A stretch of 64,000 nucleotides of DNA from Mobula hypostoma (GCF_963921235.1 NC_086097.1:7750001-7814000), one strand, 5' to 3'; counted from the stretch's first letter, positions 21,771 through 64,000 are shown. The notes: generated by a model not told the origin, from the letters alone. Made by a program: numbers and translations.

Positions 21771-22763
21771 AAAGGGTTAAGTTCAAGAGCCATGAAGTAA
21801 TGTTGCAATTCTAAAAAATCTCTGGTTTGGACCACATTTGTAATATTGTGTTCCATTGTCTCATTATAGAAAGGATGTGGAAGCTTTAGAGAGTCTAAGA
21901 GGAGATTTACTACGATATTGCCTGGATTAGAGAGCGTGTCTTATGAGAATAGGATGAGTGAACGAGGGCTTTTCTTTTTGGAGAGAGGCCACTTGATAGA
22001 GGTGTACAACATGATAACAGGCATAGATGTAGTGGATAGCCAGATCACTTTTCCCTGTGCTAAGTCACCAAGGCAAGGGGATATAACTTCAATGTGTTGG
22101 AAGGTAAGTATAGGGAGATATCAGAGGTAATTTATTTTAACACAGAATGGTAAATTTGTAGAATGCCTTGCCAGTGGTGGTGGTGCTGGTGGCGATATAT
22201 TAGGGACACCTAAGAGACTCTTAGACAGGGACACGGATGAATGAAAAATGGAGAGTTATGTGGGAGAGAAGGATTAGATTGACCATGGAGTAGGTTAAAG
22301 GGCTGGCAGAAGATCATACATCAAAGAGTTAGTATTGTGATGTACTATTCCATGTTCTATGAACCCTAGTTGATCTTTCCACATCGGTTTTCACACCATG
22401 GTCATTAGCAACATGGTCTGCTATATATTCAGCTATTCGTCTTGTTGATCTGTGTGGCATGTTAGACTTGTTTGCTTGGATCTCTGGTGACCTATACTAT
22501 TTAAGCATTTCAGAAATTTCCTGACTGGGCCAACCTCTAACCAGTCCATTATGTTTTGTATGTTTCCCTGTTCATGAAGTGGACAATCTCTTTGTACAAA
22601 TGTAGCCATTTCAATATTCAGCACATTACAATGTTTAGAATATAAATGCAATGAAGGAATAAATGCAAACAACAGGAATTCTGCAGATGCTGGAAATTCA
22701 AGCAACACACATCAAAGTTGCTGGTGAACGCAGCAGGCCAAGCAGCATCTGTAGGAAGAGGTG

Positions 22764-22801
22764 CAGTCGACGTTTCTGGCCGAGACCCTTCGTCAGGACT
22801 A
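22764..22801 (-). ncRNA. Minimal type-I hammerhead ribozyme motif
   Basis: TAGTC-CTGACGA-AGGGTCTCGGCCA-GAAACGTC^GACTG on the minus strand. Confidence 0.75.
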
Positions 22802-23096
22802 ACTGAAGGAAGAGTGAGTAAGGGATTTGAAAGTTGGAGGGGGAGGGGAAGATCCAAAATGATAGGAGAAGACAGGAGGGGGAGGGATAGAGCTAAGTGC
22901 TGGACAGATGATAGGCAAAAGGGAATATGAGAGGATCATGGGACAGGAGGTCCGGGAAGAAGGACAAGGGGGGGGGTTGACCCAGAGGATGGGCAAGAGG
23001 TATATTCAGAGGGACAGAGGGAGAAAAAGGAGAGTGAGAGAAAGAATGTGTGCATAAAAATGAGTAACAGATGGGGTACGAGGGGGAGGTGGGGCC

Positions 23097-24233
23097 TTAG
23101 CGGAAGTTAGAGAAGTCGATGTTCATGTCATCAGGTTGGAGGCTACCCAGACGGAATATAAGGTGTTGTTCCTCCAACCTGAGTGTGGCTTCATCTTTAC
23201 AGTAGCGGAGGCCGTGGATAGACATGTCAGAATGGGAATGGGATGTGGAATTAAAATGTGTGGCCACTGGGAGATCCTGCTTTCTCTGGCGGACAGAGCG
23301 TAGATGTTCAGCAAAGCGGTCTCCCAGTCTGCGTCGGGTCTCGCCAATATATAAAAGGCCACATCGGGAGCACCGGACGCAGTATATCACCCCAGTCGAC
23401 TCACAGGTGAAGTGTTGCCTCACCTGGAAGGACTGTTTGGGGCCCTGAATGGTGGTAAGGGAGGAAGTGTAAGGGCATGTGTAGCACTTGTTCCGCTTGC
23501 GCGGATAAGTGCCAGGAGGGAGATCAGTGGGGAGGGATGGGGGGGATGAATGGACAAGGGAGTTGTGTAGGGAGCGATCCCTGTGGAATACAGAGAGAGG
23601 CGGGGAGGGAAAGATGTGCTTAGTGGTGGGATCCCGTTGGAGGTGACAGAAGTTACGGAGAATAATATGTTGGACCCGGAGGCTAGTGGGGTGGTAGGTG
23701 AGGACCAGGGGAATCCTATTCCTAGTGGGGTGGCGGGAGGATGGAGTGAGAGCAGATGTACGTGAAATGGGGGAGATGCGTTTAAGAGCAGAGTTGATAG
23801 TGGAGGAAGGGAAGCCCCTTTCTTTAAAAAAGGAAGACATCTCCCTCGTCCTAGAATGAAAAGCCTCATCCTGAGAGCAGATGTGGTGGAGATGGAGGAA
23901 TTGCGAGAAGGGGATGGTGTTTTTGCAAGAGACAGGGTGAGAAGAGGAATAGTCCAGATAGCTGTGAGAGTCAGTAGGCTTATAGTAGACATCAGTGGAT
24001 AAGCTGTCTCCAGAGACAGAGACAGAAAGATCTAGAAAGGGGAGGGAGGTGTCGGAAATGGACCAGGTAAACTTGAGGGCAGGGTGAAAGTTGGAGGCAA
24101 AGTTAATAAAGTCGACGAGTTCTGCATGCGTGCAGTAAGCAGCACCAATGCAGTCGTCGATGTAGCGAAGGAAAAGTGGGGGACAGATACCAGAATAGGC
24201 ACGGAACATAGATTGTTCCACAAACCCAACAAA
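23097..24233 (-). CDS. Penelope-like RT (C-terminal half) plus GIY-YIG endonuclease, uninterrupted frame
   Basis: Part of ORF 23097..24320; the first ~29 aa of that ORF come from flanking DNA; YIDD, LPFLD, YYKPTD and GIY-YIG motifs present. Confidence 0.9.
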   Translation of the reverse strand, partial: FVGFVEQSMFRAYSGICPPLFLRYIDDCIGAAYCTHAELVDFINFASNFHPALKFTWSISDTSLPFLDLSVSVSGDSLSTDVYYKPTDSHSYLDYSSSHPVSCKNTIPFSQFLHLHHICSQDEAFHSRTREMSSFFKERGFPSSTINSALKRISPISRTSALTPSSRHPTRNRIPLVLTYHPTSLRVQHIILRNFCHLQRDPTTKHIFPSPPLSVFHRDRSLHNSLVHSSPPSLPTDLPPGTYPRKRNKCYTCPYTSSLTTIQGPKQSFQVRQHFTCESTGVIYCVRCSRCGLLYIGETRRRLGDRFAEHLRSVRQRKQDLPVATHFNSTSHSHSDMSIHGLRYCKDEATLRLEEQHLIFRLGSLQPDDMNIDFSNFR

Positions 24234-24933
24234 AATAAATGCTTTAGGTTCCAATTTCTGGGGATGTGGCAGCCGTATAGTCCTAAAGCCAACTGCCCAG
24301 TCAGCATCAACACTTAACAACTGACAGGGAGTTTCCTACACTCCAGGAACTGGATATGCTGTTGCCATCACTTTCCATACCTGAAACCTTGGAGCAGATG
24401 GACTGCCAGACAGCACAATGTAGAACCAGCAAAGGGTATCAAATTATTATTTTTAACAAGAGACCTTTGTTTCTTCAATTCCAGAAATATATCTTCTCTT
24501 GGCATGTTTTTGGGAAACTTATAGTGTGATAAAACAAATATCACTGTGCACAAGTAGAAGAATAATAAACCACATTTGTAGAAAGGTGAAATAACATAAC
24601 CCACAATATTAACTTCAGTAAAAGGGCATGAGTTGACTTTTTCACATAAAGGCACAATTCAAGCTTTCTGGTCATTAAAGTGAGGTCTGCTTTTGAAAGG
24701 AATTGAATTATTTCCCACTCACTGCACCCAATATCAATACTCAACCACTCCCAAGCCAAGTATAGCACAGGCCAAATATCGATGTTAGCTCCATCCTTGT
24801 TTTTCAAGTGTTTCCTCATCAACATAGGACAGTTGAATTACTGTAGAGGTACAAAAGTAAGATGCCTTTGAGTTACACACATCGAAGTTGCTGGTGAACG
24901 CAGCAGGCCAGGCAGCATCTCTAGGAAGAGGTA

Positions 24934-24971
24934 CAGTCGACGTTTCGGGCTGAGACCCTTCGTCAGGACTA
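24934..24971 (-). ncRNA. Minimal type-I hammerhead ribozyme motif
   Basis: TAGTC-CTGACGA-AGGGTCTCAGCCC-GAAACGTC^GACTG on the minus strand. Confidence 0.8.
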
Positions 24972-25626
24972 ACTGAAGAAAGAGCTAGTAAGAAATTTGA
25001 AAGTGGGAGGGGGAGGGGGAGATCCAAAATGATAGGAGAAGACAGGAGGGGGAGGGATGGAGCCAAGAGCTGGACAGGTGATTGGCAAAAGGGATATGAG
25101 AGGATCATGGGACAGGAGGCCCAGAGAGAAGGAAAAGGGGGAGGGGGGATAAAACCCAGAGGATGGGCAAGGGGTATAGTCAGAGGGATAAAGGAGAGAG
25201 AGAGAAAGAATGTGTGTATGTAAATAAATAACGGATGGGATACGAGGGGGAGATGGGGCATTAACGGAAGTTAGAGAAGTCAATGTTCATACCATCAGGT
25301 TGGAGGCTACCCAGACGGAATATAAGGTGTTGTTCCTCCAACCTGAGTGTGGCTTCATCTTTACAGTAGAGTAGACCGTGGATAGACATATCAGAATGGG
25401 AATGGGATGTGGAATTAAAATTCCTCGTGTTTAAGTCCAGGACCAGCCTATTGGCTCAGGGTGTCTGACCCACCGAGAGAGAAGTTGTAAAGTTTGATGA
25501 CCACAGGCAGGAGTGACTTCCTGTCCAGGTCTTGGCTCCATCCTTCCCCCTCCTGTCTTCTCCTATCATTTTGGATCTCCCCCTCCCCCTCCAACTTTCA
25601 AATCTCTTACTCACTCTTCCTTCAGT

Positions 25627-25664
25627 TAGTCCTGACGAAGGGTCTCGGCCTGAAACGTCGACTG
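25627..25664 (+). ncRNA. Minimal type-I hammerhead ribozyme motif
   Basis: TAGTC-CTGACGA-AGG(GTCTCGG)CCT-GAAACGTC^GACTG; stems I and II pair; predicted cleavage after 25659. Confidence 0.85.
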
Positions 25665-25849
25665 CACCTCTTCCTAGAGATGCTGCCTGGCCTGCTGCGT
25701 TCACCAACAACTTTGATGTGTGTTGCTTGAATTTCCAGCATCTGCAGAATTCCTGTTCTATGCCTTTGAGTTATGTTAGCAACCTGAGGCATCCAGGTGT
25801 TGAACACTAGGGCAATTTGAAGGACAGTTTTTCAGTGATAATATTCATT

Positions 25850-29114: not shown

Positions 29115-29570
29115 TATGTCAGGATGAGGCCACCCTCACTGTGAAGGAGCAACACCTTATATTCCATCTGGTTAGCCTCAGACCAGATGGTTAGAATATT
29201 GATTTCTCCCTCCAGTAAACAAATTCAACCCACCATCTCTTCCTCTATTCCCCACCTTGACATTTTACCTCTTCTCACCTGCCTATTACTTTCCTCTGTG
29301 TCCCCTCCCCCATCCCTTTCTCCTATGGTCCATTCTCATCTCCTATCAGATTCCTTCCTCTCCAGCCCTTTACTTTTCCTACCCAGTTGGCTTTACCTAT
29401 CACCTTTTAGCTATCTTCTTTCCCCAATCCTGACCTTTTTATTCCCGCATTTTCCCCCTTCCATTCCCGTCCTGAAGAGGGGCCTTGACCCGAAACTTCG
29501 ACTATCTATTCATTTCCATAGATGCTGCCTGACCCGCTGAGTTCCTTCAGCATTTAATGTGTCTTACACA
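29115..29570 (+). mobile_element. Older Penelope-like 3' fragment with degenerate hammerhead
   Basis: QDEATL...EQHLIF end of the endonuclease; GTC-CTGAAGA-GGGGCCTTGACCC-GAAACTTC-GAC at about 29469-29503. Confidence 0.75.
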
Positions 29571-37865: not shown

Positions 37866-38125
37866 AAACACAAGAGATTCTGCAAATGCTGGAAATCCAG
37901 AGTAACACACACAAAATGCTGGAGGAACTCAGCAGGTCAGGCACCATCTAGGACACTGAATAAAGAATCAATATTTTAGGCCGAGACCCTTCTTCAGAAA
38001 CTGACCCTTCATCATATTCTGATAAAAGGTCCTGTCCCAAAACGATGATGGCTTGTTCCTTTGTATAAATGCTGCCTGATCTGATGAGTTCCTTAAATAT
38101 TTTGTATGGGTTACTCAGATTTTCC
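37866..38125. mobile_element. Short fold-back element made of two inverted Penelope-type hammerhead tails
   Basis: Minus tail 37866-38002 (GAGACCCTTCTTCAG) followed by plus tail about 38015-38125 (CTGATAAAAGGTCC...CCCAAAACG...TGCTGCCTGATCTGATGAGTTCC). Confidence 0.7.
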
Positions 38126-40672: not shown

Positions 40673-42260
40673 TATTACCCTGCAGTTGACTTAAATTATC
40701 TAAATTCTGAGACTATTTTAGCTCTGAATTACTAAACAACTAAACTTGCTTGATTTTCCAAGTTGCACTTTTCTTTGATAATTCCCCTATCATATAAAAT
40801 GCAGAATGATTGTCTCAGAACAGAAGCGTGGAACAATGTGTAACACGGCTTAGATTTTAAACTCATGAGGCTGAACTGTAGCTAACAAATCCATGTGAAG
40901 ATCGATAAGAGGCTAATTGCTGGCACTAGTGTGTTCCATCTGTAAATGGGAGTCAATTTGACAATTTCCAGCTCCTCTCCAAGGTCAGATGAAACCAATA
41001 GGAAATAATACCCTCTTTATTAAAGTTGCTGCTCGGGTCTCTTGGCAGTCCCATACTTGTGAATTTCAGTGTTAAATCATCAGAAGTGCCTCTTTTAAAC
41101 TCAGACAACGCATCAAGGCTTTGCCAAATTGTGCAGAAGACCAGACCACATTTTGATGATGTACTGAAAAATATTTCTAATGACCTTTTCTCCCTTGAAC
41201 AACACCGACAAACAACATAGCACAGCTAGTTTTCTATTTGTGAAAATGCTCTGGATAATAGAGTCATAAAAATGTTATTGAGAACCACAGTCAAGAAATA
41301 GGTCCTTTGGCTCATCTAGCCCATGCCAACTCTTGCCTTAAATTTGGTTGATAGTTTCCTGTGTCTATTTATATGAACACAATTGACTGGATCTGAAGTA
41401 CACTGGATTGTAAGAAATTATATGCATATCCATATTTCATATAATTGTCTTTATTTTTACTTCATTGTTAAAAGGAAACATTGTCAATATCTATCAGTTT
41501 TTATTTAATCTAATGAGTTACAAGAATTGCTTTTCTCAGTAGAGTAACCAATCCTTTATGTAAACTGATCCTTAAAGCAAATTGGACTAATATAAAACAG
41601 AATGTGTATTTGTGAATTTGCTTTCCAATTTTAAAACAATTTTTTTTTGTGATTGCATTTTTTGTATGCATGAGTCTCGAACCACTTTGACCACCTATAT
41701 GGTTTTGCACCCCAAAAACTGGTAGACTATAAGAGTACCCTTATAAGTAATCGACAGGTCAGGCAGCATTTGTTCTGATGACAGTCTGTTGACTGAATTG
41801 TTAATTCTGTTTCTCTGCCTACAGATACAGCCTGACTTTCTGAATATTTCCAAAATTTCCTGTAATATATTTTCTTTTCACTCATAGCATAAACAAGAGA
41901 AAATCAGCAGTTGCTGGAAATCCAAGCAACACACACAGAATGCTAGAGGAACTCAGCAGGCCAGGCAGTATCTAGCAAAATACAATGATGCAGGAACTCA
42001 GCAACAAAAACAATGGTACAGAAACATGGCAACACACTAAAATGGTGCAGGAAACCCTTTGACTTACATTTTTCCATATGTGCTGCCTGGCCTTCTGAGG
42101 TCCTGCAGAATTTTGTGTGTTTTGCTTTTTCACTTTTTTTTCTATTTTTGATACTATATCATTCCTTTGACTAGAACCACATTCAACAATATATTCAAGC
42201 AACACACACAAAAATTGCTGGTGAACGCAGCAGGCCAGGCAGCATCTCTAGGATGAGGTA

Positions 42261-42298
42261 CAGTCAACGTTTCAGGCCGAGAACCTTCGTCAGGACTA
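42261..42298 (-). ncRNA. Minimal hammerhead motif (cleavage triplet GUU variant)
   Basis: TAGTC-CTGACGA-AGGTTCTCGGCCT-GAAACGTT-GACTG on the minus strand. Confidence 0.75.
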
Positions 42299-43156
42299 AC
42301 TGAAGGAAGAGCTAGTAAGAGATTTGAAAGTGGGAGGGGGTGGGGGAGATCCGAAATGATAGGAGAAGACAGGAGGGGAGGGGTGGATCTAAGAGCTGGA
42401 GGAGGGAGAGGATCGTGGGATGGGAAGCCTGGGGAGAAAGAGAAGGGGGGAGGAGAGCCCAGCGGGTGGAGAGCAGGCAAGGAGTTATACTGAGCGGGAT
42501 AGAGGGAGAGAAAAGAGAGAGAGAAAAGAAAGGGGAAAAATATATAAAAATATATATTAAATAAATAAATAAGGGATGGGATGTGAAGGGGAGGAGGGGC
42601 ATTAGCGGAAGTTAGAGAAGTCAGTGCTCATGTCATCAGGTTGGAGGCTACTCAGATGGAATATAAGGTGTTGTTCCTCCAACCTGAGTGTAGCCTCATT
42701 TTAACAGTAGAAGAGGCCGTGGATAGACATATAAGAGCGGGAATGGGACGTGTCAAGATGAAGCCACACTCAGGTTGGAGGAACAACACCTTATATTCTG
42801 TCTGAGTAGCCTCCAACCTGATGGCATGAATATTGACTTCTCAAACTTCCGCTAATGTCCCTCCTCCCCTTCATACCCTATCTTTTATTTATTTATTTGA
42901 TATATTCTTTATATATTTTTCCCCCTTTCTTTTCTCTCTCTTTTTTCTCCCTCTGTCCCTCTCACTATAACTCCTTGCCTGGTCTCCACCCGCCGAGCTC
43001 CCCTCCCCCCTTCTCTTTCTCCCCAGGCTTCCCATCCCACGATCCTCTCCCTCCTCCAGCTCTTAGATCCACCCCTCCCCTCCTGTCTTCTCCTATCATT
43101 TCGGATCTCACCCACCCCTTCCCACTTACAAATGTCTTACTAGCTCTTCTTTCAGT

Positions 43157-43194
43157 TAGTCCTGACGAAGGGTCTCGGCCCGAAACGTCGACTG
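43157..43194 (+). ncRNA. Minimal type-I hammerhead ribozyme motif
   Basis: TAGTC-CTGACGA-AGGGTCTCGGCCC-GAAACGTC^GACTG; predicted cleavage after 43189. Confidence 0.82.
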
Positions 43195-44289
43195 TACCTC
43201 TTCCTAGAGATGCTGCCTGGCCTGATGCGTTCACCAGCATTTTTTGTGTGTGTGTTGCTTGAATTTCCAGCAACTGCAGATTTCCTCATGTCAGCGTTTT
43301 TAAATTCAACAATATATTGGTGATTTCATGCCCAACGATTCAGGGGCAGTTTGTCCACCTTTGCCACGAGATGCCTGAATGGACATTGAATCTCTGAACT
43401 CTTCCTCACTACTTGTCTTTCTCTTTTTGCACTTCTTATTTAATTTGACTATACACGTATTCTTTGGACTGTAATTTGTACTGCTGCCGCATTTCGATAA
43501 ATTTCATGACATATGCTGATGATATTAAACCTGATTCTGATACAGCCCACTGATACAAATTCAAGATTAAATATCTATGTACAAACTTTTATGTGCACAG
43601 GCGCCACAGTAGCATAGCAGTTAGCGTGACACTTTTACAGCTCGAGGCAGCAGAAATATAAAAATTTACACAGCACCAAATGAAGAAAAGATTACATGGA
43701 TGGTAGGGGTACGGAGGGCTATGGTCCCAGCACATGTCGATGAGACTAGGCAGCTTAAATGGTTTGGCATGGACTAGGTGGGTTGAGGACCTGCTTCTGT
43801 ACTATATTTCTTTGTGACTCTATTAGGAAGAATGTTAGAGTTTTGCCTGTGAAAAAGGCTTGAAGAAGGATTCTGAAGGAGAAAATGAATTCCTGAGTCT
43901 AGTGTAAGTTAAAATAGAGGAAGAGTTGAAGGGAGACTGAATCACCCTTGCTCATTTTCCTTGTAGTGGAAGTTGCTGAGGGGGATCTGATTGTGGTAAA
44001 ACAAATTGTTAGGGGATAAGACATATTTCCCCATTGTAGGTGAGGCAGGAGGATTAAGGTGAAATGGAAAAGGTTCACAAGGAATCTTAAGAAGAATATT
44101 TTCCTCAGGGTGGTTAGAAGCTGACAACAGTCAAGAAACATCTGGATCCCCGTAAAAACATATGGGGGTAGGAAGTTTAAATGATTTGGCATGGACTAGA
44201 TGGGTGAAAGGCTTGTGTTGTATTTTTCTATGACTCTGTGACTCTATATGCGTGTGATAAATTGGAATAGATTAGATTGGTACTTGTTT

Positions 44290-58104: not shown

Positions 58105-58627
58105 AGAGAAGGGAAATGCACCTCACTGCAGATATCCTTGTATGTCATAGTAGCTATGCATCCTCAAGCATCCATTAAATAACTGGTACTTTCTCCAACC
58201 ATGCTTCCAATTGGATTCATCTCCAAAGGTTTTAAACCATTCCCACATTTCTCCATCAACTGATCTCACCCAGCAACATAATGCTGATTCTTTGGATGAT
58301 CCTGACGTCCCCTTTCTCTCGCCCACACTCATTATTGACACCACCTTAAGTTCCCTTACACCAAAGACTCTCTCTTCCACTTTGATCACGGAGCTGCCTT
58401 GTTTCCTCCACCTGTTCTCAAACAATAATCGGGCTTTGTTCTTCACACAGCAGAGAACTTAAACTGCCTGTAGCCTCAGAGAAAAGCAGCACAGGCTTCC
58501 CCACATGGTATAGACTTAATGTGCCTGTTGAGATAAAACAAGAATTTCAAAGCCGATATTCTGTAAATTCAGACCAGAAACAAACTGACCTGGAGAGCCA
58601 CCTAATACCAGACTAATTCTTTGTGCG

Positions 58628-59506
58628 CAGACATGAGGAAAGCTGCAGATGCTGGAAGTTCAAGCAACACGCACAAAAAGTGTTGGTGAACACATCAGGC
58701 CAGGCAGCATCTATAGGAAGAGGTACAATCGACGTTTTGAGCCGGGACCCTTCATCAGGACGAACTGAAAGAAGAGATAGTAAGACATTTGTAAATGGGA
58801 GGGGGTGGGTGAGATCCGAAATGATAGGAGAAGACAGGAGGGGAGGGGTGGATCTAAGAGCTGGAGGAGGGAGAGGATCATGGGACAGAAAGCCTGGGGA
58901 GAAAGAGAAGGGGGGAGGGGAGCTCGGCGGGTGGAGAGCAGGCAAGGAGTTATAGTAAGAGGGACAGACGGAGAAAAAAGAGAGAGAGAAAAAAATGGGG
59001 AAAAAAAATATATATTAAAAAATATTAAATAAATAAATAAGGGATGGGGTGTGAAGGGGAGGAGGGGCATTAACAGAAGTTAAAGAAGTCAGGTTGGAGG
59101 TTACCCAGACGGAATATAAGATGTTGTTCCTCCAACCTGAGTGTGGCTTCATCTTGACAGTAGAGGAGGCCATGGATAGGCGTATCAGAATGGGAATTAA
59201 AATGTGTGGCCACTGGGAGATCTTGCTTTCCCTGGCGGACAGAGCGTAGGTATTCAGCGAAACTGTCTCCCGGTCTGCGTCGGGTCTCGCCAATATATAA
59301 AAGGCCACATCGGGAGCACCGGACGCAGTATATCACCCCAGCCGACTCACAGGTGAAGTGTCGCCTCACCTGGAAGGACTGTCTGGGGCCCTGAATGGTG
59401 GTGAGGGAGGAAGTGTAAGGGCATGTGTAGCACTTGTTCTGCTTTGACTGTACCTTTTCCTATAGAGACTGCCTGGCCTGCTGCGTTCACCAGCATTTTT
59501 TGTGTG
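58628..59506. mobile_element. Penelope insertion: minus arm 58628-59444 plus short inverted tail 59446-59506
   Basis: GIY-YIG ORF 59070-59369; 14-bp direct repeat TAATTCTTTGTGCG (58614-58627) / TAATCCTTTGTGCG (59507-59520); hammerhead at 58726-58763 has a GAAA>AAAA change. Confidence 0.92.
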
Positions 59507-61494
59507 TAATCCTTTGTGCGGTTGATGGGAAACAACTTCTGGAGGTGACTTTTATTCACACAGCCTTGGCAACACCATCCCAACTCAATGAATAATGATT
59601 ATGTGCCCATTTGTTTCACTGTTTGTGGCCAGATAGAAATTGGCTGTTGCTTCTATCCAACCGACAGCAATGAGTCCAGCACAGAAGTAATTCATTGCCT
59701 GTGGAGCACCTTGGGGCTTCCTGGACAGATTATCCCATTTTTTATTTCATCGCCATTTCCAGGTTTTTGCCGCATCTAATTTTCTGTCACTTGCTTTTGG
59801 ATTTTAAAGTAGTTCAGAAGAATTTCATTAGTTGTGAAGTAATTCAGGAACTTTCCCCAGCACAAAATGGTGCTATTGTAATGGAATTTCATTTGCTATG
59901 TATACATTACTTTTATTATCTTTTAATTGAGATACAGCCTGGAATAGGCCCTTCTGGCCCTTCAAGCTGCATTGCCCAACAATCCTCCAGTTTATTCCTA
60001 GCCAAATCATGGGACAATTTACAATAACTATTCAATCTAATAACCAGCATGTTTCTGAACCATGGGAAGAAACCAGAACACCTAGAAGTTCCTAACAGGA
60101 GCTATTAGTGATTGGTTATAAATGCTGGTCCTGCTACCAATAGTCCCATTCTACAAAAAAAATACCACTGTTTGTACTTTACATGGGATTTATTTCTCTC
60201 ATGAATCTTTAACTGGGCTGACGCTACAATTACAGATTGACAAGTTCTGGCTGAGTACACCAAACTGTTACAGTTCATGCCAGGAGGCACTGGGGTCTGT
60301 AAATCTACCGTCGTGAGCAAAATTGCAAAGGAAATCCTATCGGCAAATAATGACAGGTGACAATGGAAATTACTTGCCCAGCAGAGGATGTAAACTCAAG
60401 CAAGTTACAGGACCCGACACTGCATATCTAGTTTGAAGACTTCAGGGAGGCTTACTAATCTGGCTATACTTTGCCTGCGCTGTTCACCCACAGCTACTGA
60501 CCTCATTTTTCTCTCTTCCCCCCCCCCACCCTCCACAAACACATGTCAGCCCTCCAGTCTTCTCGAATAGGACCTCTCAGTATGGCACCATAAGTCAAAA
60601 GAAGGAAATGTTTTTGCCTTGTTTGTTCATTCATACAGCCAGAGGGAGAACTGTTAATATTGGAAGCTACGAGAAGAAAGAATGAAGAAAGATGTAAGCC
60701 TGGAGGACAACAACATCAAAGAAGTTAAATGTAATCTGTCTCATTTATACTGTGTTGACCTCCAGCAAGCAGCAATAGGTTTTGAATTTACACTGTATAA
60801 ATAAACTATGTCTGTAAAGGTCTGTGTTACCAGCAGAGCCACCTAGTTTTAAAGTATATTGAGGAAGTTCTGTTTTTTGTCAAGTGTAGAAAAATAAGAG
60901 GTGGCATGGTCGTGTAGTAGCTTACAGCGCCAGTGATCCAGTTTTAGCTCTTGCCGTTGTCTGTAAGGAGTTCGTCCGTTCCTTCCATCACCATGTGGGT
61001 CTTCTCCAGCTGCTCCAAGGACTTTTGGGTTGGTTGGTTAATTGGACACAGGAAGTATTGGGCAGCACAGGCTCGTTGGGCTTTATCTCTCTATAAAATA
61101 AAATAAAGAAAAGAAAGTTGACCCTTCTAAAAGGGAGCTCCTTCACCCAGCGGGTGGCGAAAGTGTGGAACGAGGCAGCGTCAGGGGTGGTGGATGCGGG
61201 TTTGATTTCAACATTTATGAGTAAATTGGATAAGTACATGAATGGGAGGGGTAAGGAGGGCTATGGTTCAGGTGCAAGTCGTTGGGACTAGGTAGAATAA
61301 CCGTTTGGCATGGACTAGATGGGCTGAAGGGCCTGTTCTGTGCTGTAGCACTACATGAATCTATGACTCTGTTGAAAACCTGAGTACTGGCTGACTAAGT
61401 GTTGCCAAGGATGGAAGAAAGAGGAAGAACAAGATAGACAAAGCACAGGGACAGGCCCTTCAGATCACAACGCAGTGCCAAAACCAATACGTGG

Positions 61495-61955: not shown

Positions 61956-64000
61956 GTGAGACAGCTGCCCAGGAATGGATACCACAAGACCCTTCACCCC
62001 TCTCTCGACACCCCATACACCTACTAAAACAAATAAATTATTAATCAAATTGCCAGCTGGTATGGTGTGAACCAATCCCTTATGTCTATGTCCATGTCCT
62101 TCCCTTTTCCTCACATGATCTTGACATTAAATTCCCTTTTTTGCCCATGGCAAAGATGCCTGAACATGGAAGAGTCAGCTGAGATCGTAACACCAACATA
62201 AAAATATTTTGTGCTCCATCAGATTCAGAGAGACTATGACTTTTTATGCTTTACTGAGCAGGTATGCCATTGTATATGAAAATTCTTATTATTTATCAAA
62301 GTGCCCATGACAGATTAAGAAAAATCTTTTTTGTTATGCTCCAAGCAGCTCAGTCACAGATTTTCACTCATGGAAGTTGCTTAGTGCTTTGATAAGACAG
62401 TTTATAATACTGTGGAATTGTGAAGTGTGACTTATTAAGGAATCCGAATGCAGATATCAAAATCTATTTGTACTTGGTGCTCTTAAGTTACATTTCATTA
62501 AATAATATCAAGAACTTTGAATTCTCTCATAGTTGGTTGACAAATGTTACTGTAATGAATGTTGAGTTTTGCTTGGAGTAAACCAACAGAACAAGAGTAA
62601 CATTAAAACAAGACGTCAACATTTCCTACTGCATTCAGTATTCAACACAGAATTAGAGTATGCCCACAAGGAAATGTGTCTCAGTGATATATATTTTGAA
62701 AAAAAAATTACTTTAAACTTTGAGTTCAGGAGATTGAGAGATGATCACAGAGACGTGATCATAGAGCACCCTCTCGTCATACTAAAGTAAAAAAGGGGTT
62801 TTACATTTCATTTACATGGAAATGAATAAACAGTCGACATTTCAAGCCAAGACTATTCATCAAGATGGAAAGGAAGTGGAAGAGAAAGAGGGAAGGACCT
62901 TCCTTTCTTCCACCTACCCCCTTTCAGTTCCCTTTATTTGTTCTTCCCTCTTCCATTCCAGTCCCGAAACATCAACGCTTTATTCATTTCCACAGATGCT
63001 AGTTGACCTGCTGGTTCCTAAGGTTGTCATAGCCGGGGGGTGGTAGTGGAGATGGAAGTGCTCCAAATGGTGTGCGTCTCTAACAGCCTCTGACAGCCAA
63101 TTCCAACTCTTGACCTTCATGTGTGGCTTAGCTACGAGGCCCGGTGGAACTGTTTTTACTGACAAGAGAAGGAGCAAGGGCAGACTACTAGTACCTCAAT
63201 AACAGTTGCTTCAGGTAAGTGGGGCTCATCAGCCTTGGACAGCTGCCTACCTAGGAGAAGGAAAACTCTGCTTTTAAACCTCCACTGTCTTGCGGCCATA
63301 CCCACCCATAGGAAAGGCTTCAGCACTAAACCCTGAGGAAGAAATCGGAGCTAGGTCCCTAAGGCAGTTTGATGTTCTTTACAACTTCACTCTGGCAACC
63401 TCTGCGATGACACTGGAGCCAGACTGTATTGGTACTTACCCTTCCCTTGGACTACATCAGTGACGTGGAGAGGGGGAACTCACTGCATGGGCAACAGCCG
63501 ATTCTTCAAATCTTCCCATCCAGGCTTGCGCCCTGGAGAGGACACAGTCTACCAGAGGTGCAAACCCATGATCCCATGGGATTGACGGCTGCCTACTACC
63601 TGATCTGCTGAGTTCCTCCAGCATTTTGTGTGTGTTGCTCTGGATTTCCCGCATCTACATAATCTGCTGTTCCTGCATTTAATTATGCAATCTAGAATTG
63701 ATGCTGAGAGGTTGTTTTGCCTTGTGACAGATTTTAAAACAACGAGGCATGCCATTAGAACTAGGAACCACCCTTAGAGTGAAGATAAGGAGGAACAGAT
63801 TTTTGTAGAAGGTGTTGAATGTTTGGAATTTTCTACTCCAGAGAGTGGTGGAGGGCTGAATCACTGAACACAGTCAAGTGTGAGATAGATAGATTTGCAA
63901 GACTATGGGAAAAAACAGATGAATGAAACTAAGCAGACGGCTCTTTCATAGAACCGACAGTGAGACACAAAACAAGTAGCCTCTGTCTCTGATATATCTT

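What the first reader, a model, noticed from the sequence alone, without database searches (positions are those of the whole stretch)
59441..59520. Inverted arm begins at the predicted hammerhead cleavage site
Seen: the minus arm stops at ...CACTTGTTCTGCTT (59444) and the plus arm starts T-GACTGTACC (59445/59446). This is the sequence immediately 3' of GAAACGTC^, within one nucleotide of the predicted scissile bond. Inference: this is a fossil of a ribozyme-generated RNA 5' end copied to completion, hence indirect evidence that the ribozyme cleaved in vivo. It is a single instance and could be chance.
Basis: partly seen in the sequence, partly recalled or inferred. Interest (0 to 1): 0.7.

Follow-up and report, generated by a model that had tools for sequence, protein, structure and literature searches.

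The report
Two-armed Penelope insertion at ribozyme site
This is one head-to-head insertion of a Penelope-like jumping gene whose short arm starts exactly where the element's hammerhead ribozyme should cut; across the genome that start point is over-used in such insertions, which hints at, but does not prove, that the ribozyme cuts in living cells.

Summary
Window 58627-59507 is a single insertion of a Penelope-like element (PLE) flanked by a 13/14 target-site duplication. A long minus arm runs from the tail back into the GIY-YIG ORF. One extra T follows, then a 62-nt plus arm that begins at the first base after GAAACGUC^.

Junctions whose first family base is +1 gave 337 hits. Eight other positions between -5 and +12 gave 44-148 after scaling for the chance that unrelated DNA passes the pattern. 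That is about 1.6% of 66,904 tails.

The peak is not simple:
- 39 of 100 listed +1 junctions are two recurrent fold-back types whose partner arm ends inside the hammerhead, one with stem-I microhomology.
- Plain truncations are not clearly enriched at +1 (1.6x, p=0.16) and are as common at +7.
- Junctions to a distant inverted arm, the type seen here, are about 4x enriched (p=0.002).
- An older family showed no excess (32 vs 33), and no usable RNA data were available.

Verdict: an ordinary PLE structure whose junction position is set by the hammerhead. Cleavage of the template is the likeliest cause (about 0.4). Reverse-transcriptase arrest or template switching at the folded, uncut ribozyme is almost as likely.

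The parts
58614..58627 (.). Left copy of the target-site duplication, TAATTCTTTGTGCG. The last 1-2 bases may belong to the element's tail.
   Evidence: 13 of 14 identical to 59507-59520, lying exactly at the outer ends of the two arms. 1 of 300 random window pairs reached this score.
58627..58730 (-). Tail of the long (minus) arm, positions +1..+104 after the cleavage site. It includes the optional roughly 40-nt 'tail' extension, so it uses the distal 3' end.
   Evidence: alignment to the intact copy 43190-43310. Searches show the two discrete 3' ends of the family.
58731..58761 (-). Hammerhead remnant of the long arm: GTCCTGATGAAGGGTCCCGGCTCAAAACGTC. The G of the GAAA box is now A and stem II is damaged.
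59070..59444 (-). 5' end of the long arm: the last 124 codons plus stop of the PLE ORF (CxxC linker, GVIYCV...LYIGET GIY-YIG motifs). It is truncated at 59444, about 730 nt upstream of the cleavage site.
   Evidence: translation. alignment to the longer copy 22600-24890. One search gives GIY-YIG in that longer copy's ORF, E 3.2e-4.
59445..59445 (.). Single T between the arms, assignable to neither (filler).
59446..59507 (+). Short (plus) arm, tail positions +1..+62. It starts at the base after GUC^, ends at the proximal 3' end of the family and lacks the tail extension.
59507..59520 (.). Right copy of the target-site duplication, TAATCCTTTGTGCG. The first T is shared with the arm.
43158..43189 (+). 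Reference intact hammerhead of the family in this window (positions -32..-1; cleavage predicted between 43189 and 43190). I used it for coordinates and folding.

Best explanation
Window 58627-59507 is one insertion of a Penelope-like retrotransposon made by target-primed reverse transcription from both nicked target strands. One cDNA started at the distal start site (+104) and ran about 830 nt, through the hammerhead and into the GIY-YIG coding region. The other cDNA started at the proximal start site (+62) and stopped after 62 nt at +1. The two cDNA ends were joined with one extra T, and the staggered nicks gave a 14-nt target-site duplication. These steps are shown by the sequence or follow from published PLE biochemistry. 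The inferred step is why the short cDNA stopped at +1. I take the likeliest cause to be that its RNA template ended there because the minimal hammerhead had cut it. That ribozyme works as a dimer and, in the anole element, only when the element's protein is bound. A complex holding two templates is therefore where cutting is expected. A cDNA that runs off a true RNA end is then joined to the neighbouring cDNA instead of being lost. This would explain why the +1 excess is seen in inverted junctions rather than in plain truncations. The confidence given (0.42) is for the cleavage step; that the locus is a single two-armed PLE insertion I hold at about 0.9.
For: One event:
- The TSD is 13/14 at the outer ends.
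- A second two-armed insertion in the window (42196-43303) has a perfect 15-nt TSD.
- The arms end at the family's two discrete 3' ends. This matches the two adjacent internal RT start sites and the cleavage and extension of both strands reported for the anole PLE (PMC11167929, main text read).

Position of the junction:
- Genome counts of junctions whose first family base is b, with four non-family bases upstream and a 24-nt exact anchor: b=+1 337; -1 44; -2 58; -5 45; +2 146; +3 127; +4 99; +7 99; +12 81. Reversed-pattern controls gave 0 throughout.
- 337 is 3.7x the median and 2.3x the maximum of the other eight positions after scaling for pass probability.
- In a design that excludes intact copies with small indels, I read 24-26 of 100 listed junctions as b=+1, against 1-2 at +2, 1 at +3 and 2 at -1 (by eye).
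- Junctions to an inverted arm ending 35 nt or more upstream of the cleavage site, which have no built-in microhomology: 10 of 42 sampled at +1, against 13 of 99 sampled at +2, +4, +7 and +12. The rate ratio is 4.0 and binomial p is 0.0017. Partner ends ranged from -44 to -661, and the window case lies at about -730.

Ribozyme:
- The CUGAYGA and GAAA boxes, a 5-bp stem I, a 4-bp stem II and a palindromic ACGU in place of a hairpin stem III are all present. This is the dimer-type PLE hammerhead of PMC4209133 (abstract and passages).
- Protein-assisted cleavage of the anole PLE hammerhead was shown in vitro (PMC11167929).
Against: - 39 of 100 listed +1 junctions are two recurrent types, TCAG|GACTG (22) and TCCT|GACTG (17). 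13 of the 14 I fetched are fold-backs of the form rc(tail)-rc(part of hammerhead)-tail. The first type shares the 4-nt stem-I sequence GACT, so its breakpoint is ambiguous and it can form by snap-back without cleavage. Identical junctions could also be copies of a few fold-back masters.
- Plain truncations with unrelated upstream DNA are not significantly enriched at +1: 9 of 42 sampled, estimated 34 hits, against estimates of 7, 19, 39 and 22 at +2, +4, +7 and +12 (ratio 1.6, p=0.16).
- A second hot spot for plain truncations at +7, the 3' foot of stem I, shows that RNA structure alone stops this enzyme.
- The older family gave 32 hits at +1 and 33 at +2.
- 3' breakpoints, which a free GUC> end might attract, show no clear peak at -1: 61, 12, 37, 48 and 14 at -4, -3, -2, -1 and +1, mostly small indels.
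- In the anole element cleavage was not needed for insertion in vitro, and no RNA-seq reads began or ended at the site (PMC11167929).
- About 98% of tails read through the site.
- The class assignments rest on samples of 19-42 loci per position and on my reading of 4-mers.
Confidence: 0.42

Rival explanations
1. The same two-armed PLE insertion, but the template of the short arm was not cut. Reverse transcriptase, having melted stem I, stopped or switched template at the three-way junction of the folded hammerhead, so +1 marks the edge of an RNA structure and not an RNA end.
For: - The fold-back types TCAG|GACTG, CCTTCGTC|GACTG and CGGGCCRA|GACTG use complementarity that is part of the ribozyme: stem I AGUC/GACU, and the alternative GACG/CGUC helix that also appears in the minimum-energy fold.
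- Sense copies in which the hammerhead core is precisely skipped exist: AGTC|GAC in 5 of 100 listed (by eye) and L096. This is typical of structure-guided template switching.
- Plain truncations peak at +7, the foot of stem I, as strongly as at +1.
- Cleavage was dispensable in vitro for the anole element (PMC11167929).
Against: - A stop caused by a helix is usually expected just before that helix, meaning at about +7 for stem I or after C17 for stem III. Yet -1 has 44 hits against 337 at +1, and +2/+3 are nearly empty in the indel-free design.
- The window junction has no microhomology (1-nt filler).
- About 98% of copies pass through the hammerhead, so it is a weak barrier.
Confidence: 0.33
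2. Chance: the short arm is an ordinary 5' truncation that happens to end at +1.
For: Breakpoints occur at every tested position, with 44-146 hits each. Estimated far-inverted junctions at the control positions are 4-17.5 hits, against 38 at +1, so roughly one in four +1 cases of this type would be background. The unselected 264 kb holds only this one +1 case.
Against: +1 is the mode in every design used. The excess for exactly this junction type has p=0.0017.
Confidence: 0.2
3. Two independent insertions that landed next to each other in opposite orientation, or an L1-style twin-priming inversion.
For: The family is very dense, with at least 14 tail copies in 64 kb, so neighbours are common.
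Against: A single 13/14 TSD brackets both arms and there is none between them. Both arms carry the same 3' region, whereas twin priming inverts the upstream part of one template (recalled from the L1 literature, not checked here).
Confidence: 0.04

Closest known systems
Penelope-like element insertions with an adjoining inverted 5'-truncated copy, pseudo-LTRs and an optional 30-40 bp 'tail' (Craig et al. 2021, PMC8557442; passages read)
   Same: Head-to-head arms, heavy 5' truncation, a one-sided tail extension, a hammerhead in the terminal repeat and a GIY-YIG ORF.
   Different: That paper, in the passages I read, gives no positions for the inner junctions and calls the hammerhead's function unclear. 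Here the junction sits at the scissile bond, and that position is over-used genome-wide.
Anole Poseidon element PAc in vitro (Frangieh et al. 2024, PMC11167929; main text read)
   Same: Both target strands are cut and extended. Reverse transcription starts at two adjacent internal sites, which gives the optional tail. Targets are AT-rich ATT sites (the TSD here begins TAAT). The hammerhead lies upstream of the RT start sites.
   Different: In PAc, cleavage was not required and no RNA-seq reads ended at the site. Here a genomic excess of cDNA ends at that site is seen. Nothing was tested biochemically here.
Minimal dimeric hammerheads of metazoan PLEs (Cervera and De la Pena 2014, PMC4209133; abstract and passages read)
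   Same: Core boxes, short stems I and II, and a palindromic helix III that needs a second copy. [quoted passage not shown]
   Different: No Rfam model recognises it. Activity of this particular sequence is untested.
R2 retrotransposon HDV-like ribozyme that defines the 5' end of the element RNA (Eickbush and Eickbush 2010). I saw only its entry in the reference list of PMC4209133; the content is recalled.
   Same: A self-cleaving ribozyme sets an RNA 5' end that is then recorded in genomic 5' junctions.
   Different: In R2 the ribozyme is at the 5' end and processing is part of the normal cycle. Here the hammerhead lies 62-104 nt from the 3' start sites, so cutting yields a dead-end stub in about 1.6% of copies.

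Membership tests
Penelope-like element (EN+) | Reverse transcriptase domain | tested here: inconclusive
   The ORF 23097-24335(-) of the longer copy shows LRYIDDCIG, the YxDD motif, read by eye. Pfam reported no RT family at E<=0.01. The copy is 5'-truncated.
Penelope-like element (EN+) | C-terminal GIY-YIG endonuclease after a CxxC linker | tested here: inconclusive
   Pfam GIY-YIG scored E 3.2e-4 and 21.4 bits, just under the curated cut-off of 22.6. The motifs CYTCPY, GVIYCV and LYIGET are visible.
Penelope-like element (EN+) | Partial tandem (pseudo-LTR), inverted 5'-truncated copy and optional 30-40 nt tail | tested here: met
   Tandem plus inverted arrangement at 22652-25767. Head-to-head pairs at 42193/43299 and 58627/59507. 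Two discrete 3' ends about 40 nt apart.
Penelope-like element (EN+) | Hammerhead motif in the terminal repeat | tested here: met
Type I minimal (dimeric) hammerhead ribozyme | Conserved core CUGANGA ... GAAA and a GUC triplet before the cut | tested here: met
   CUGAYGA, GAAA and ACGUC are present in 18 of 18 aligned same-family copies apart from point changes. The core is extracted.
Type I minimal (dimeric) hammerhead ribozyme | Stems I and II, and a palindromic helix III formed between two copies | tested here: met
   Stem I is C-G, U-A, G-C, A-U, U-G. Stem II is three G-C pairs plus U-G. ACGU is self-complementary. No covariation test was made.
Type I minimal (dimeric) hammerhead ribozyme | Match to a curated covariance model | tested here: not met
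   Rfam gave no hammerhead hit at gathering score over the whole window, nor at E<=10 over 43100-43320. This is expected for a motif without a hairpin helix III, but it remains a failed test.
Type I minimal (dimeric) hammerhead ribozyme | Self-cleavage at the predicted bond | not testable with these tools
   The RNA runs were available only as contigs of uncertain kind, and no ends could be read.
Two-strand target-primed reverse transcription product | One target-site duplication around both arms, each arm ending at an RT start site | tested here: met
   both for this locus and for 42181-43318.

The most novel reading that the evidence does not exclude
The excess of inverted-arm junctions at +1 is a genomic record that the dimer-type hammerhead of Penelope-like elements does cut in vivo. 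It would cut inside integration complexes that hold two template RNAs, whose hammerheads pair through the ACGU helix. Cutting one template would turn that arm into a 62- or 104-nt stub, whose run-off cDNA is joined to the other arm. This would give the ribozyme a place in the PLE cycle and explain why inverted 5' arms are so often very short.
Probability: 0.3. Interest if true: 0.7.

Novelty: new member of a known kind. Interest (0 to 1): 0.5.

Why it matters
Whether PLE hammerheads act in vivo, and what they are for, is stated as open in the papers I read. [quoted passage not shown] A nucleotide-sharp excess of cDNA ends at the scissile bond, confined to two-armed insertions, is a cheap genomic read-out that can be repeated in any PLE-rich assembly, and it turns the question into a testable one. 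Two full-text searches and the passages read in four papers turned up no such breakpoint analysis. I did not see the supplements of those papers. The locus itself is an ordinary decayed transposon insertion with no likely host function.

Tried and rejected
- RNA evidence: no RNA holder was listed for the stretch. All 24 runs were contigs of guessed kind. Laying four of them gave no begin or end places, only homology boundaries at -32 and +6 and a few opposite-strand joints. Nothing can be concluded from this.
- Rfam: no hammerhead hit.
- Replicate in an older family (GACTGTTTAYTC... tails): 32 hits at +1 and 33 at +2, too few and too decayed. TCAG|GACTG again made up 11 of the 32.
- 3'-breakpoint profile around -1: dominated by 1-3 nt indels, no clear peak.
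- A pattern with leading N to show upstream context: the N were trimmed, and only a count with a 20-nt anchor (363) came back.
- A large random sample of the genome for a script-made histogram could not be obtained. I then worked with whole-genome counts plus 180 short stretches.
- Snap-back priming for this particular junction: rejected, because the 3' end of the long arm shares no complementarity with the site.
- Two independent insertions and twin priming: rejected on the single TSD and on both arms carrying the same 3' region.
- TSD for the composite 22652-25767: none found.

Full report
**What is at the coordinates**

A minus-strand repeat copy ends at 59444 (...CACTTGTTCTGCTT), a single T follows, and a plus-strand copy starts at 59446 with GACTGTACC. 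The repeat finder pairs 59446-59514 with 58662-58730 (69 nt, 83% complementary).

**The repeat family**

The repeat is a Penelope-like element (PLE).
- The minus copy translates from its truncated 5' end into ...CYTCPY...GVIYCVRCSRCGLLYIGET...*.
- A longer copy (23097-24335, minus) adds LRYIDDCIG. It gives a Pfam GIY-YIG hit just under the curated cut-off (21.4 vs 22.6 bits).
- Downstream of the stop codon lies CTGAYGA-AGGGTCTCGGCCY-GAAA-CGTC, followed by a tail with two discrete 3' ends near +62/+68 and +104/+108.
- The window also holds a tandem-plus-inverted composite (22652-25767) and another head-to-head pair (42193/43299).

These are the published hallmarks of PLE insertions: pseudo-LTRs, an adjoining inverted 5'-truncated copy and an optional 30-40 nt tail (PMC8557442, passages).

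**The ribozyme motif**

Numbering runs from the predicted cut, with -1 the C of GUC and +1 the G of GACUG.
- Stem I is AGUC(U) (-33..-29) paired with GACUG (+1..+5).
- Stem II is GGGU/GCCC around a tetraloop.
- Helix III is only the self-complementary ACGU.

This is the minimal, dimer-type PLE hammerhead of PMC4209133 (abstract and passages). Rfam does not recognise the motif. A 31-nt pattern of it occurs 87,581 times in the 3.48-Gb assembly with up to two mismatches, and 0 times in the reversed control.

**The two arms are one event**

TAATTCTTTGTGCG (58614-58627) and TAATCCTTTGTGCG (59507-59520) lie exactly outside the two arms. Only 1 of 300 random pairs of window segments reaches that alignment score.
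- The long arm ends at the distal 3' end (+104).
- The short arm ends at the proximal one (+62).
- The pair 42196-43303 has a perfect 15-nt duplication, and its inner junction lies in the ORF region, not at +1.

This fits the in vitro behaviour of the anole element. Both target strands are cut and extended, and reverse transcription starts at two adjacent internal sites downstream of the hammerhead (PMC11167929, main text).

**The histogram: method**

I therefore counted junctions over the whole genome by pattern: four positions required to differ from the family consensus, followed by 24 exact family bases starting at position b. Unrelated upstream DNA passes such a pattern with probability 0.316. 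For b=-5 and b=+7, where a variable consensus base forced a two-letter code, the probability is 0.211.

**The histogram: totals**

| b | hits |
|---|---|
| -5 | 45 |
| -2 | 58 |
| -1 | 44 |
| +1 | 337 |
| +2 | 146 |
| +3 | 127 |
| +4 | 99 |
| +7 | 99 |
| +12 | 81 |

- All reversed-pattern controls gave 0.
- After scaling for pass probability, 337 is 3.7 times the median and 2.3 times the maximum of the other eight positions.
- The anchor GACTGY...GATGC itself occurs 66,904 times. Junctions at +1 therefore affect about 1.6% of tails, and about 98% read through.
- A second design used four non-GAAA bases at -8..-5, twelve free positions and then the anchor from +9. It detects all b from -4 to +9 equally and excludes intact copies with small indels. 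It gave 1,525 hits.
- Of the 100 listed I read by eye: b=+1 in 24 (26 with two ambiguous), -4 in 8-9, -3 in 9, -2 in 3, -1 in 2, +2 in 1-2, +3 in 1, +4 in 6, +5 in 6, +6 in 5, and about 32 at +7..+9.

So there is a peak at GTC^GAC that is sharp to the nucleotide against its neighbours. Breakpoints are also common further into the tail.

**What the peak is made of**

Among the 100 listed +1 hits, the four upstream bases are TCAG in 22, TCCT in 17, ACGT in 5 (a 1-nt deletion in intact copies), GTCN in 4, GACN in 5 and other in 47.

I fetched 6 TCAG, 8 TCCT and 6 CCTTCGTC|GACTG cases. All but one TCCT case are fold-backs of the form rc(tail)-rc(3' part of the hammerhead)-tail, with different flanks.
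- In TCAG|GACTG the left arm ends at the C of CUGAYGA, and the joint shares GACT, the DNA image of stem I.
- In CCTTCGTC|GACTG the joint shares CGTC, the GACG/CGUC helix that also appears in the minimum-energy fold.

These types can arise by snap-back of a cDNA or by microhomology joining, without any cleavage. They might also be copies of a few fold-back masters.

Sense copies with the hammerhead core precisely skipped also occur: AGTC|GAC in 5 of 100 listed (by eye) and L096.

**Classifying the remaining junctions**

I fetched about 140 nt upstream of sampled junctions and compared them with natural PLE copies from the window. Counts are solo (unrelated upstream DNA) / far-inverted (partner arm ending 35 nt or more upstream of the cut) / near-inverted / sense copy with mutation or internal deletion.

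| b | sample | solo | far-inverted | near-inverted | sense |
|---|---|---|---|---|---|
| +1 | 42 of the 47 'other' (two classed by eye) | 9 | 10 | 16 | 7 |
| +2 | 20 of 48 | 2 | 5 | 7 | 6 |
| +4 | 20 of 62 | 6 | 4 | 5 | 5 |
| +7 | 19 of 45 | 11 | 2 | 6 | 0 |
| +12 | first 40 of all 81 | 11 | 2 | 19 | 8 |

At +7 I skipped two TCTG entries, and one extra entry from a recurrent class was fetched. At +4, two of the six solo loci have identical flanks.

Scaled to whole-genome hits:

| b | solo | far-inverted |
|---|---|---|
| +1 | 34 | 38 |
| +2 | 7 | 17.5 |
| +4 | 19 | 12 |
| +7 | 39 | 7 |
| +12 | 22 | 4 |

- Far-inverted junctions are 4.0 times more frequent at +1 than at the mean control position (binomial p=0.0017).
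- Solo truncations are 1.6 times more frequent at +1 (p=0.16) and are equally common at +7, the 3' foot of stem I.
- The far-inverted partners at +1 end at many places, from -44 to -661. The window case, at about -730 with a 1-nt filler and no microhomology, belongs to this class.

**Reading**

The hammerhead clearly shapes where cDNA ends and joints fall. Two mechanisms fit.

(A) The template of the short arm was cut by the ribozyme. In favour:
- The peak lies exactly at the scissile bond, not one base before a helix.
- -1 is nearly empty.
- The anole ribozyme was shown to cleave with protein assistance in vitro.
- The excess appears only where two cDNAs meet. This is what a ribozyme that needs two copies, and a cDNA that runs off a true RNA end, would give.

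(B) The enzyme stops or switches at the folded, uncut three-way junction. In favour:
- The stem-derived microhomologies.
- The core-skipping deletions.
- The +7 hot spot.
- The lack of a solo excess at +1.
- The anole result that cleavage is dispensable and leaves no RNA-seq ends.

Three further tests did not help. The older family showed 32 hits at +1 against 33 at +2. 3' breakpoints showed no clean peak at -1. Public runs gave only contigs. I put A at about 0.4, B at about 0.33, background chance for this single case at about 0.2, and other origins at about 0.05.

**Known or new**

The locus is an ordinary member of a known kind of insertion. Earlier notes of this scan on the same genome describe a fold-back PLE insert, dispersed PLE hammerheads, and one 63-bp TSD-flanked insert starting at the same site. 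I did not re-examine those loci.

The genome-wide junction profile did not appear in two full-text searches or in the passages I read of PMC4209133, PMC8557442, PMC11167929 and the 2026 preprint. I did not see their supplements, and subscription papers were not searchable.

Noticed in passing
window 42181-43318: A second two-armed PLE insertion (arms 42196-42752 minus, 42751-43303 plus) with a perfect 15-nt target-site duplication, ATTCAACAATATATT. Its inner junction lies in the ORF region. One arm lacks the tail extension and the other has it.
   Followed up: partly
window 22652-25767: A composite of a long copy, an upstream partial tandem copy (pseudo-LTR, 24875-25421) and an inverted arm (25521-25767). 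No target-site duplication was found at its ends.
   Followed up: partly
genome-wide: Plain 5' truncations of the tail are as frequent at +7, the base just 3' of stem I, as at +1, and rarer at +2 and +4. This looks like a structure-dependent stop of the reverse transcriptase at the foot of stem I.
   Followed up: partly
genome-wide (entries of type AGTTAGTC|GAC; L096): Sense copies in which the hammerhead core (-28..-1 or -26..-1) is precisely missing, with 2-3 nt of shared sequence at the joint. These could be template skipping across the closed three-way junction or a ribozyme-less subfamily.
   Followed up: no
genome-wide, e.g. G000:C2:200417460-200417503: Perfect palindromes GTCGACGTCGAC in which two inverted arms meet at the ACGT that forms helix III of the dimeric hammerhead. 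They make up about 16 of the 45 hits at b=-5, and some are counted on both strands.
   Followed up: no
window 29469-29562 (+), 37868-37997 (-), 62720-62920 (-); L012-L028: Older, CpG-decayed PLE families share the block -32..+6 and the tail core (ATAGATGCTGCCTGACCTGCTGAGTTCC...) but differ at +7..+16. Contigs laid break homology at the same two places.
   Followed up: partly
window 58731-58738 (minus strand): The long arm's own hammerhead now reads AAAACGTC in place of GAAACGTC and has a damaged stem II, so this copy could not cleave as it stands.
   Followed up: no
G000:C1:61736929-61736994: Two adjacent 31-nt direct repeats of tail positions +1..+31 (CTGCCTGG|GACTG twice), a local tandem whose unit starts at +1.
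   Followed up: no
L120 and L121 (G000:C9:18662962-18663137 and 68733044-68733219): Identical flanks around the same truncated tail 50 Mb apart on one contig, which suggests a segmental duplication or an assembly repeat.
   Followed up: no
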